NCBI RefSeq assembly: GCF_006345805.1
Contig: NW_021824864.1
Span: 1-16,893 of the forward strand
Length of the DNA: 16,893 bases
Reading direction: 5' to 3'
From: Octopus sinensis
Lineage: Eukaryota
Below, piece after piece: positions 7,956 to 10,275 of the stretch; position 1 is the first letter of the stretch; each line of letters opens with the position of its first letter. The position numbers were made by a program.

Positions 7956-10275
7956 TGAGAGAGACGCACATAATCAGGTAGAGAGAGACTGAAATAAAAA
8001 TAGAGAGTATGTGTGTCGGCATTCACCCACTGGCATATGTATATAGATATGCAATTTGCCCTCTTGTCTATTGGGCTTGTAAACTCATATAAGGACTGAT
8101 AAAATATTATCTCTCTCCTGGTTTGAGATCTCTTGTTTTGCCAGTAGATGGCAGCAGACAAAACAAACGTGTAGTTTATCCTTCAAGCTCCTTTTCCCTA
8201 GCTTATAGCGCCGAAATTACATTTAATTATATGTCAACAGCTCGGTTATTTTTGTGGCGTGTGTTTGAATACTGTTTAGAATTTATCGTCAGTACCCCCC
8301 CCCCCCCAGTGGCTAGCCACATTCAGATGGCTAATACCCCTTACGTTGTCGAGCGGTTACTGTTTATATCTCGTTCAGAGATTTATTATTGTTTTCAGAC
8401 AGTTTTTCTACATCAGTGACAGTGGTTACTGTGAAAAACATTATATATTGTTTGTAAGGGGACTCCTTCATCGAAGACCGGTGCTTACCATGCGTTGACA
8501 AGAGGCAATTACCTCGAAACTATAGTCCGTATGTAGTACTCGGGTCTTCGAGGGAAGATGACCTCCCTTTGCAAACAACACAACGACACTGAGATAGTGT
8601 CTAAAGTCCTTCTGGTGACGTTGATCGCCTGGGGCTAAAAGCATCAGTAACCCCCCCCCCCCAGTGGCTAACCACATTCAGATGGCTAATACCCCTTACG
8701 TTGAAATATCAAATACTAAAGAACTATTTCCCGTCGAATCTGAACAGATGCGTGCGTGTGTGAGTCTTCTTTAAATTCTGATCAAAAGAGATATTGCTAG
8801 CATTTGAAATCAGTATTTTTCGAGTTGATGTTTGTGTTGCCATGATCTTTGACCAAAATTGTACAACCAATGATATTATTGTCTCGTCAGCTATTTTCAA
8901 CGTTGCTGTGTGACGGTTAAACTTGTCAGCATTTTCTTTGTCATTCTAGCAGTATTTGTTTCATATATTGATGAATAGCAAACAAACGTTCCTCAAAGGT
9001 AACAACTTCATTCAATAATAAATGATATATCCTGTTTAATCATGTATGACATATCTCTGAATGACATAATCCGGAGTATGTACAATCAAGTTTAATCGGT
9101 TGTTGAACTTTCACGTTCCGTAACTTGTTATTTAGATCTTCAACAAATTTACTACAAGTTTATGTTAATAGATCCTGGTCAGACTATCATTACGTATAAC
9201 ATTCAATGTTTACATTGCCAAACTGTTGAGGTGGCAGCAGTTGCTGTGGTGGCAGGATTTATATATAGTTGAAATTTATAAAAAAAACAAAAGATGATGA
9301 TAGGTGTATGAACAACAAGTAGGTGTTTTAGGTAGACGCTCAGATAAATGAAAAATTCTTTTTACAATTTGAGCGTAAGCACCTCAAGAGAAAGGAATAA
9401 GAGAAAATAAACAGAGCAAGAATGAAAAAAACCTGTATATATATATATATATAGTGAAGACTATTGAAAAGGTTGCAAGACGCAACGAAACTTTTAGGAA
9501 AATAAGTAGAAAGTTTACTGGTGAGTGTGTTAAATTATAAGGCACAAAAAAATGACTCTCCCCATCTCAACAGTATATATCAGTATATCAGTATATATAT
9601 ATATATATATTCGGAGACTCCCTTCGGTCACGACACAGACCATGGGATTGCACCTAGAAAGTTACCCTCCTAGACACAAGTCCGGGCGAGGTTGTTTATG
9701 GAAGACCAGCAGTCGCCCATGCATACCAGCCTCCCCTCTCCACGCTACCAGTGTTATCCAAGGGAAAGACAAAGGTCGATACAGCTTGGCACCAGTGACG
9801 TCGCAACTCATTTCTACAGCTGAGTGAACTAGAGCAACGTGAAATAAAGTGTCTTGCTCAAGAACACAACACGCAGCCCGGTCTGGGAATCGAGCTCACA
9901 ACCTCACGATCGTAAGCTCGACGCTCTAACCACTGAGCCATGCGCCTATATATATAGATTAGTGGTTAGGGTATTCAGCTCATGACCGTAGGGCCTCGCG
10001 TTCGATTCCCGGTGGTGCGTTGTCTCAATGAGCAAGACACTTTATTTCACGTTGCTGGCAAAAATGAGTAATACCTGTATTTCAAAGGGCTGGCCTTGTC
10101 ACACACTGTGTCACGCTGAATCTCTCTGAGAAGCATGTGAAGGGATATGCGCGTGTGTGGAGTACTCAGCCACATGCACGTTAATCTCACGAGCAAGCTG
10201 TTTGGTTGATCGTATCAACTGGAAACCTCCTCATCGTAAGAGACAGCGTGCCAGTATAATATATATATATATATG

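What the first reader, a model, noticed from the sequence alone, without database searches (positions are those of the whole stretch)
8289..8703. Candidate retrozyme: 355-nt hammerhead-bearing unit integrated as a ~1.17-mer, as if copied from a circular RNA
Seen: a non-coding 355-bp unit whose first 60 bp are repeated at its end, with a complete hammerhead in the middle. Known: metazoan non-LTR retrozymes are small (a few hundred nt) non-autonomous repeats with type I hammerheads whose transcripts self-cleave to monomers and circularise. Inference: terminal redundancy with the ribozyme away from the ends is what reverse transcription running slightly more than once round a circle (or along a multimer) would leave. 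The predicted circle is 8528-8643 + 8289-8527 (355 nt) with its junction at C8527/C8528. This copy has only one ribozyme, so circles would have to come from multimeric copies elsewhere. I do not know whether this family has been described in cephalopods.
Basis: partly seen in the sequence, partly recalled or inferred. Interest (0 to 1): 0.85.

Follow-up and report, generated by a model that had tools for sequence, protein, structure and literature searches.

The report
Hammerhead-bearing 355-bp retrozyme-like repeat
A short non-coding repeat carrying a slightly unusual self-cutting hammerhead RNA motif sits here as one-and-a-bit copies, and it most likely belongs to an already described class of small mobile elements of invertebrates that spread through RNA circles.

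Summary
Positions 8289-8348 and 8644-8703 are a 60-nt direct repeat (58 of 60 identical) spaced 355 bp apart. A type I hammerhead-shaped motif lies between them at 8489-8533 on the + strand, with its cleavage site at C8527/C8528.

"Complete hammerhead" needs a qualifier:
- The core reads UUGACAA where the consensus is CUGANGA. Positions 3 and 8 are U and A instead of C and G. These two pair with each other, and the change is a documented natural covariation.
- No Rfam hammerhead model matches, even at E<=10.
- My own descriptor finds this one locus in the window. It found nothing as good in 0 of 1000 shuffles with the narrow null, and in 8 of 300 with a liberal null.
- Helix sizes (6, 4 and 2 bp, with a palindromic loop) fit the published metazoan type I architecture.
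- Two copies are predicted to fold as a double hammerhead.

The unit is non-coding, has 45% GC and is strongly self-paired as a circle (z -4.3). A decayed Hydra-clade Penelope-like element lies 2.4 kb downstream.

Best reading: a dead-end monomer-plus copy of a non-LTR retrozyme. That makes it a new member of a known kind.

Copy number, multimers, circular RNA and the host taxon could not be tested.

The parts
8289..8643 (+). One 355-bp monomer of the repeat unit. Non-coding, GC 45.4%.
   Evidence: Spacing 355. GC, and circular fold of -107.6 kcal/mol with z -4.27, 0 of 200 shuffles as low, 61% paired. No relatives for its longest frames.
8289..8348 (+). Left copy of the 60-nt terminal direct repeat. 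It holds a C13 run and a 12-nt palindrome.
   Evidence: The palindrome shows as a self-inverted 12-nt match at 8309-8320.
8644..8703 (+). Right copy of the 60-nt repeat, i.e. the first 60 nt of a second unit. 58 of 60 identical to the left copy.
8489..8533 (+). Type I hammerhead-like motif. Helix I 8489-8494/8528-8533; core 8495-8501 (U3 and A8 in place of C3 and G8); helix II 8502-8505/8512-8515; GAA 8516-8518; helix III 8519-8520/8525-8526; C17 8527. Predicted cut between 8527 and 8528.
   Evidence: Sequence. Descriptor hit unique in the window. Shuffles. Architecture as described for canonical metazoan type I hammerheads, and the U3-A8 variant as documented in nature. No Rfam match.
8519..8526 (+). 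8-nt palindrome ACUAUAGU, made of helix III and its loop. It can pair with a second copy to give the extended helix III of a double hammerhead.
   Evidence: Unconstrained cofold of two copies of 8464-8558 gives helices I and II in each copy plus an 8-bp intermolecular helix III: -78.8 kcal/mol against 2 x -36.5. The duplex alone is -7.2.
8471..8551 (+). Internally looped extension of helix I. 8471-8485 pairs with 8535-8551 (15 bp, 2-nt bulge). It is separated from helix I by the internal loop 8486-8488 / 8534.
   Evidence: MFE structures. + strand -44.6 kcal/mol, z -3.83, 1 of 200 shuffles as good. - strand -38.5, z -2.39, 3 of 200.

Best explanation
The 415 bp at 8289-8703 are a single, probably dead-end genomic copy (1.17 units) of a small non-autonomous retroelement of the non-LTR retrozyme kind. 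Its 355-nt unit carries one type I hammerhead ribozyme on the + strand.

Inferred mechanism, following the published model:
1. Copies elsewhere that carry two or more units are transcribed by read-through.
2. Hammerheads cut after C17 (8527 in this copy). They probably act in pairs, because helix III is only 2 bp but palindromic.
3. The 355-nt linear RNA is ligated into a circle by a host ligase.
4. A reverse transcriptase, most likely from a Penelope-like element, copies the circle (or an uncut multimer) for slightly more than one turn, and the cDNA is integrated.

This copy has one ribozyme. At most it can be cut once, and it cannot release a unit-length RNA.

Shown here: the repeat architecture, the hammerhead-shaped motif with a compensatory U3-A8 core, the predicted folds, the lack of coding capacity, and a Penelope-like relic in the same window.

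Inferred: catalytic activity, circular RNA, which enzyme mobilised the unit, and the existence of other copies.
For: - 60-nt terminal redundancy at a 355-bp period, with sharp ends. The insertion ends (8289, 8703) do not coincide with the ribozyme cut site (8527/8528), so the template was not a cut linear monomer.
- Hammerhead motif unique in the window. 0 of 1000 shuffles were as good with the narrow descriptor, and 8 of 300 with any <=2 core mismatches.
- Helix I 6 bp, helix II 4 bp, and helix III 2 bp capped by a 4-nt palindromic loop. This equals the 'canonical' metazoan type I architecture in Cervera & de la Pena 2014 (PMC4209133, passages).
- The same paper reports U3-A8 in place of C3-G8 as a natural covariation, with about 1300 hits in Schistosoma mansoni.
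- The unconstrained dimer fold is a double hammerhead. Dimeric cleavage through an elongated helix III is described for newt and viroid motifs (PMC6155905, passages).
- Helix I has an internally looped extension, as is required for newt type I motifs.
- The + strand folds better than the - strand: z -3.83 against -2.39.
- The circle fold has z -4.27 and GC is 45.4%. Retrozyme circles are described as 170-400 nt, highly self-paired and of low GC, and the mussel units are about 350-390 bp (PMC7229834, passages).
- Monomer derivatives are common in genomes, and retrozymes co-occur with Penelope-like elements (bioRxiv 10.64898/2026.07.22.740005, Results part 1).
- A decayed Hydra-clade Penelope-like ORF lies at 11128-13164 on the same strand.
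Against: - No Rfam hammerhead model matches, at gathering score or at E<=10, even when only 81 nt were searched.
- The core departs from consensus at two of the 11 invariant positions, and activity is untested.
- Only one copy was seen. There is no other copy in the 16.9-kb window. Two attempts to find other copies through spurious ORFs in protein collections found nothing (no candidate, 0 proteins at E<=0.001). An exact 26-nt scan of bacterial and archaeal genomes found 0, which is uninformative for an animal.
- No target-site duplication. The longest word shared by the 40-nt flanks is 6 nt, and 336 of 2000 shuffles reach that.
- The unit shows no similarity to the flanks of the neighbouring Penelope-like relic. 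It is separated from that relic by about 2.4 kb, including other repeats.
- My descriptor was written after I had seen the motif.
- Partial tandem arrays are not special to this unit: a 184-bp unit stands at 2.5 copies at 6746-7202.
Confidence: 0.55

Rival explanations
1. The 415 bp are a fragment of a longer hammerhead-bearing element. One candidate is the pseudo-LTR / 3' region of an autonomous Penelope-like element inserted as a 5'-truncated partial tandem. Another is an element with internal 60-bp direct repeats. On this reading there is no free-standing 355-nt family.
For: Penelope-like elements carry hammerheads in their pseudo-LTRs and typically insert as partial tandems, with 30-40-bp 'tails' at one end (PMC8557442, passages). 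Retrozyme consensus sequences are homologous to pseudo-LTRs in Xenopus. U3-A8 cores were first seen in Penelope-like elements. A Penelope-like relic is in the window.
Against: A 355-bp spacing of the terminal repeat implies a template period of 355 nt, which is far shorter than any coding element. No RT or endonuclease ORF abuts the unit: the nearest starts at 11128, 2.4 kb away, beyond other repeats. The unit shares no sequence with that relic's flanks. The motif has a full helix III and a 6-bp helix I with a looped extension, unlike the minimal variants described for most Penelope-like elements.
Confidence: 0.2
2. It is the remnant of a local tandem (satellite-like) array of a 355-bp unit, grown or shrunk by DNA-level slippage or unequal exchange. 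The hammerhead is an inherited fossil, and no recent RNA-mediated step was involved.
For: Hammerheads were first found in animals in satellite DNA. Array ends normally give non-integer copy numbers. Another partial tandem (184 bp x 2.5) lies 1.1 kb upstream. No target-site duplication was found.
Against: Only 1.17 copies are left, with sharp borders against unrelated sequence on both sides. The two repeat copies differ at only 2 of 60 positions, and the ribozyme helices are intact, which does not look like an eroded old array. In the literature such 'satellites' are now read as retrozymes, so this rival differs mainly in how this one copy arose.
Confidence: 0.15
3. The hammerhead-like motif is a chance look-alike inside an unrelated duplicated stretch. 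There is no ribozyme.
For: No Rfam hammerhead match. Two core positions are off consensus. With a liberal descriptor, 8 of 300 shuffled windows give a hit as good somewhere.
Against: The hit falls inside the 2.5% of the window that is the repeated unit. The two departures are exactly the compensatory pair documented in nature. Helix sizes, the palindromic helix III, the double-hammerhead cofold and the looped helix I extension all match published type I features. 0 of 1000 shuffles matched with the narrow descriptor.
Confidence: 0.05

Closest known systems
Metazoan non-LTR retrozymes (Cervera & de la Pena 2020, PMC7229834; coral, mussel, axolotl)
   Same: Type I hammerhead; non-coding unit in the 150-450 bp range (mussel about 350-390 bp, here 355); GC below 50%; strongly self-paired predicted circle; more-than-unit-length genomic copy; Penelope-like elements in the same genome region.
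   Different: Only 1.17 units with one ribozyme were seen, not dimers to multimers. The core has U3-A8 instead of C3-G8. Copy number and circular RNA are unknown. No target-site duplication. The host is said to be a cephalopod, for which my searches found no described retrozyme.
Hammerheads in pseudo-LTRs of Penelope-like elements (Cervera & de la Pena 2014, PMC4209133)
   Same: Type I topology; proposed dimeric action; the U3-A8 covariant core was documented in Schistosoma Cercyon-type elements; partial-tandem insertion habit.
   Different: Those motifs are mostly minimal: no helix III, helix II of 7-8 bp, helix I of 4-5 bp. They flank an RT-endonuclease ORF. Here helix II is 4 bp, helix I is 6 bp with a looped extension, helix III is present, and no ORF abuts.
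Newt satellite 2 / Schistosoma Sm-alpha hammerhead repeats
   Same: A repeat unit of a few hundred bp with a type I hammerhead; weak helix III and cleavage as a double hammerhead (newt); helix I extension with an internal loop.
   Different: Those occur as long arrays or thousands of dispersed copies, with proven self-cleavage. None of that is known here. Any likeness of the loop sequences to those motifs is my recollection only and was not tested.

Membership tests
Hammerhead ribozyme, type I | Conserved core: CUGANGA, GAA, the A15.1-U16.1 pair, and H at position 17 | tested here: inconclusive
   9 of 11 invariant positions are consensus. H17 is C, and G10.1-C11.1 is present. Positions 3 and 8 are U and A, the compensatory pair reported in natural variants.
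Hammerhead ribozyme, type I | Three helices around the core, with helix I open and helices II and III closed by loops | tested here: met
   Helix I 6 bp, II 4 bp, III 2 bp. One locus in the window. 0 of 1000 shuffles as good.
Hammerhead ribozyme, type I | Match to a curated covariance model (the Rfam hammerhead families) | tested here: not met
   No hammerhead family at gathering score or at E<=10 on 601 nt and on 81 nt.
Hammerhead ribozyme, type I | Site-specific self-cleavage | not testable with these tools
   Needs in vitro transcription of monomer and dimer constructs.
Metazoan non-LTR retrozyme | Short tandem repeats of a 150-450 bp unit, from dimers to multimers, each unit with a hammerhead | tested here: inconclusive
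   The period of 355 bp is in range, but only 1.17 units and one ribozyme are present. Monomer derivatives are reported for known families.
Metazoan non-LTR retrozyme | Low GC (below 50%), no LTR/PBS/PPT, no coding capacity | tested here: met
   GC 45.4%. Longest frame 72 aa, without relatives. No Pfam family for the frame 8093-8419. No tRNA-like part. PBS and PPT were not searched for specifically.
Metazoan non-LTR retrozyme | Highly self-paired unit-length RNA | tested here: met
   Circular MFE -107.6 kcal/mol, z -4.27, 0 of 200 shuffles as low, 61% paired.
Metazoan non-LTR retrozyme | Many dispersed genomic copies, with target-site duplications when present | not testable with these tools
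   No animal genome collection was open. No second copy in the window. No target-site duplication at this copy.
Metazoan non-LTR retrozyme | Expression as linear and circular unit-length RNA | not testable with these tools
   No RNA data available.
Metazoan non-LTR retrozyme | Co-occurrence with Penelope-like elements in the host genome | tested here: met
   Decayed RT + GIY-YIG ORF at 11128-13164. tblastn to a 738-aa relative covers residues 48-733, E 2e-61.
Pseudo-LTR of an autonomous Penelope-like element | Direct repeat flanking (abutting) an RT-endonuclease ORF, with the same sequence at both ends of the ORF | tested here: not met
   The nearest ORF relic starts 2.4 kb downstream, beyond other repeats. 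The unit has no similarity elsewhere in the window: other blastn hits are <=31 nt with E>=0.24.

The most novel reading that the evidence does not exclude
The host (said to be a cephalopod) carries an active, so far undescribed retrozyme family. Its otherwise canonical, loop-stabilised type I hammerhead uses the compensatory U3-A8 core pair and works as a double hammerhead, yielding abundant 355-nt circular RNAs mobilised by Penelope-like (perhaps Hydra-clade) reverse transcriptase.
Probability: 0.3. Interest if true: 0.45.

Novelty: new member of a known kind. Interest (0 to 1): 0.3.

Why it matters
If confirmed, this would add one more animal lineage to the hosts of ribozyme-made small circular RNAs. 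It would also be a natural example of the position 3 / position 8 base pair of the hammerhead core covarying in a full-size type I motif. That supports the structural role of the pair and shows that standard models (Rfam) miss such variants. It would not change the picture of how these elements work. The class, its model of spread and its link to Penelope-like elements are already in print.

Tried and rejected
- Rfam over the whole window and over two small stretches around the motif gave no hammerhead.
- Rfam over 14180-14980 also gave no hammerhead. Two CUGAUGA...GAAA strings lie there.
- Other copies in the window: none.
- Other copies through spurious ORFs in protein collections:
  - the 69-aa minus-strand frame had no candidate;
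  - the 72-aa plus-strand frame gave 0 proteins at E<=0.001 among 1.84 billion representatives.
- An exact 26-nt scan of bacterial and archaeal genomes gave 0. I expected that, and it says nothing about animals.
- Target-site duplication: none beyond chance.
- tRNA-like head: none.
- A relaxed 'minimal hammerhead' descriptor gave one extra weak hit at 9464 (+), with helix I of 3 bp. I computed no null for it and take it for chance.
The protein atlas gave no usable taxa for the neighbouring ORF.
- The local Pfam scan of four full-length relatives of that ORF returned nothing, although their precomputed labels list PF26215 and PF28514.
I therefore could not compare the motif with the Hydra-clade hammerheads (supplementary file S2 of PMC8557442, listed but not read) or with the mussel retrozyme sequences of PMC7229834. 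Either could bear on family assignment.

Full report
**1. The observation**

The window has no N. The repeat finder reports one two-copy family of 60 nt at 8289-8348 and 8644-8703, 97% identical, with start-to-start spacing of 355. blastn of 8289-8703 against the whole window returns:
- the self match;
- the 60-nt repeat (96.7%, E 3.8e-24);
- otherwise only matches of 31 nt or less with E>=0.24.

The two mismatches are 8295 C / 8650 A and 8316 G / 8671 A. Beyond the repeat, similarity stops at once: 6 of 20 positions match upstream and 1 of 20 downstream. Tandem Repeats Finder lists 72 rows, none with a 355 period. That is expected for 1.17 copies.

**2. The hammerhead**

Reading the + strand gives a type I layout:

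| Element | Coordinates | Notes |
|---|---|---|
| Helix I | 8489-8494 / 8528-8533 | 6 bp, one G-U |
| Core | 8495-8501 | UUGACAA |
| Helix II | 8502-8505 / 8512-8515 | 4 bp, 6-nt loop |
| GAA | 8516-8518 | |
| Helix III | 8519-8520 / 8525-8526 | 2 bp, loop UAUA |

Against the consensus CUGANGA...GAAA (descriptor strings quoted in PMC8557442), nine of eleven invariant positions agree. Positions 3 and 8 read U and A instead of C and G.

Cervera & de la Pena 2014 (PMC4209133, passages) report exactly this covariation, 'U3-A8 instead of C3-G8', in Penelope-like elements of Schistosoma mansoni, with about 1300 hits. The same paper describes the canonical metazoan type I motif as helix I 6 bp, helix II 4 bp, and helix III 1-2 bp capped by a small palindromic loop. 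The motif here has precisely that form.

That the C3U/G8A double change keeps activity in engineered ribozymes is my recollection. It comes from no call.

**3. Is the motif more than chance?**

A descriptor of mine required:
- a core with C3-G8 or U3-A8;
- helix I of at least 4 bp;
- helix II of at least 3 bp;
- helix III of at least 1 bp.

It hits one locus in the window on either strand (a second register of the same locus is also listed). In 1000 dinucleotide-preserving shuffles of the whole window, 9 had any hit, and 0 had one with helices of 6, 4 and 2 bp.

The descriptor was written after I had seen the motif, so I also ran a liberal null. It allowed any two or fewer mismatches in the nine fixed letters of CUGANGA and GAA, with helices as long as observed. 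8 of 300 shuffles had a hit somewhere in 16.9 kb. The real hit lies inside the 415 bp of the repeat, and its two departures are the compensatory pair.

Against this, Rfam gives no hammerhead family:
- at gathering score: 0 matches in the window;
- at E<=10 on 8200-8800: 3 unrelated matches, E 6 to 6.8;
- at E<=10 on 8470-8550: 1 unrelated match, E 9.6.

I could not run a positive control, and I could not test how much of the miss is due to positions 3 and 8.

**4. Folding**

- The stretch 8455-8575 folds at -44.6 kcal/mol on the + strand (z -3.83; 1 of 200 shuffles as good). Helices I and II are present, and helix I is prolonged by a 15-bp stem (8471-8485 / 8535-8551) beyond a small internal loop (8486-8488 / 8534).
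- The - strand folds less well: -38.5 kcal/mol, z -2.39, 3 of 200 shuffles as good.
- In the monomer MFE, the 2-bp helix III does not form, and part of the core is sequestered.
- Helix III with its loop is an 8-nt palindrome (8519-8526). An unconstrained cofold of two copies of 8464-8558 gives helices I and II in each copy and an 8-bp intermolecular helix III, which is a double hammerhead. Its energy is -78.8 kcal/mol, against -73.0 for two monomers.
- The 355-nt monomer folded as a circle gives -107.6 kcal/mol, z -4.27, 0 of 200 shuffles as low, and 61% paired. GC is 45.4%.

**5. Coding and other content**

- The longest stop-free frames in the unit are 72 aa (+) and 69 aa (-).
- The 69-aa frame had no candidate in the word-indexed search.
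- The 72-aa frame had 0 proteins at E<=0.001 among 1.84 billion representatives.
- The frame 8093-8419 has no Pfam family.
- ARAGORN finds no tRNA in the window.

The two protein searches doubled as an attempt to catch other copies through spurious gene calls. They found none.

**6. Surroundings**

*A Penelope-like relic.* tblastn of a 738-aa relative (P0038) covers its residues 48-733 at 11128-13164 on the + strand. The match runs in three frames with many stops (E 2e-61). The search found 51 proteins at E<=0.001 among 124 candidates.

The relic and its relatives show most features that Craig et al. 2021 give for the Hydra clade of Penelope-like elements (PMC8557442, section 11 read whole):
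- an RWK motif;
- DKT in place of DKG;
- a CxCX5C linker (CxFX5C in the relic);
- a C-terminal GIY-YIG domain, with CxxC and CxH around it;
- a short single ORF.

These are visible.

That paper says canonical hammerheads were readily detected in Hydra elements. I found none beside this relic. The unit also shares no sequence with the relic's flanks.

*What lies between.* About 2.4 kb separate the unit from the relic. This stretch includes a copy of a repeat of about 400 bp that occurs four times in the window.

*Target-site duplication.* None is evident. The longest word shared by the 40-nt flanks is 6 nt, and 336 of 2000 shuffles reach that.

**7. What it most likely is**

The anatomy matches the non-LTR retrozymes of Cervera & de la Pena 2020 (PMC7229834, passages):
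- type I hammerheads in non-coding units of 150-450 bp, about 350-390 bp in the mussel;
- low GC;
- no LTR, PBS or PPT;
- expression as self-paired circles of 170-400 nt.

However, terminal redundancy alone cannot separate three routes, because Penelope-like elements habitually insert as partial tandems:
- a circle;
- an uncut multimer;
- a template jump.

What the ends do show is that the template was not a cut linear monomer. The insertion ends at 8289 and 8703, not at 8527/8528.

This copy has one ribozyme. It cannot release a unit-length RNA.

**8. What stayed open**

- Copy number, multimers, permuted ends, circular RNA and catalytic activity are all untested.
- The host could not be named.
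- In the held library I found no description of retrozymes or hammerhead repeats in cephalopods:
  - retrozyme/hammerhead/octopus, 97 papers with at least 2 of the terms, 25 listed;
  - 'hammerhead ribozyme' with 'cephalopod', 4 papers, 2 listed;
  - 15 listed, none holding 'hammerhead ribozyme'.

  These are word searches of open-access text and listings only, not proof of absence.

**9. Verdict**

If it holds, this is a new member, with a variant core, of a class described in 2020. Interest is modest.

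Noticed in passing
window 11128-13164 (+); small second fragment 15921-16070 (+): Decayed RT + GIY-YIG ORF of a Penelope-like element with Hydra-clade marks (RWK, DKT, linker CxCX5C degraded to CxFX5C, CxxC/CxH). It has many stops and frameshifts, and its start abuts a (TATG)n run at 11011-11101. 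No hammerhead was found beside it. The second fragment matches at E 0.001 only.
   Followed up: partly
window 6746-7202; related copies 500-739 (-) and 16095-16266: A 184-bp unit in 2.5 tandem copies (86% matches), with dispersed relatives in the window. It looks like a short interspersed repeat that also forms partial tandems. ARAGORN finds no tRNA in it.
   Followed up: partly
window 4510-4941, 5173-5674 (-), 7456-7819, 10604-11052: Four copies of a repeat of about 400-470 bp, 68-86% identical to each other. One lies directly upstream of the Penelope-like relic and one lies 470 bp upstream of the hammerhead unit. Identity unknown.
   Followed up: no
window 9833-10056: A stretch that matches its own reverse complement (68% over 234 nt). 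The 355-nt control segment starting at 9801 had the lowest circular folding energy of the 24 control segments (-138 kcal/mol).
   Followed up: no
window 14237 and 14901 (+), 15048 (-): Plain CUGANGA...GAAA core strings. The two + strand sites share 17 of 19 nt around the core and lie 664 bp apart. The first abuts the (TA)n run at 14296-14458. Neither passes the helix tests, and Rfam finds nothing there. They may be eroded hammerheads or chance.
   Followed up: partly
window 9464-9494 (+): A weak hit of the relaxed 'minimal hammerhead' descriptor: U3-A8 core, one bulged base, helix I 3 bp, helix II 5 bp. I computed no null and take it for chance.
   Followed up: no
window 8295-8307 and 8651-8662: A run of 12-13 C near the start of each copy of the 60-nt repeat, followed by a 12-nt palindrome at 8309-8320. 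In the second copy the 8671 change breaks the palindrome. Role unknown.
   Followed up: no
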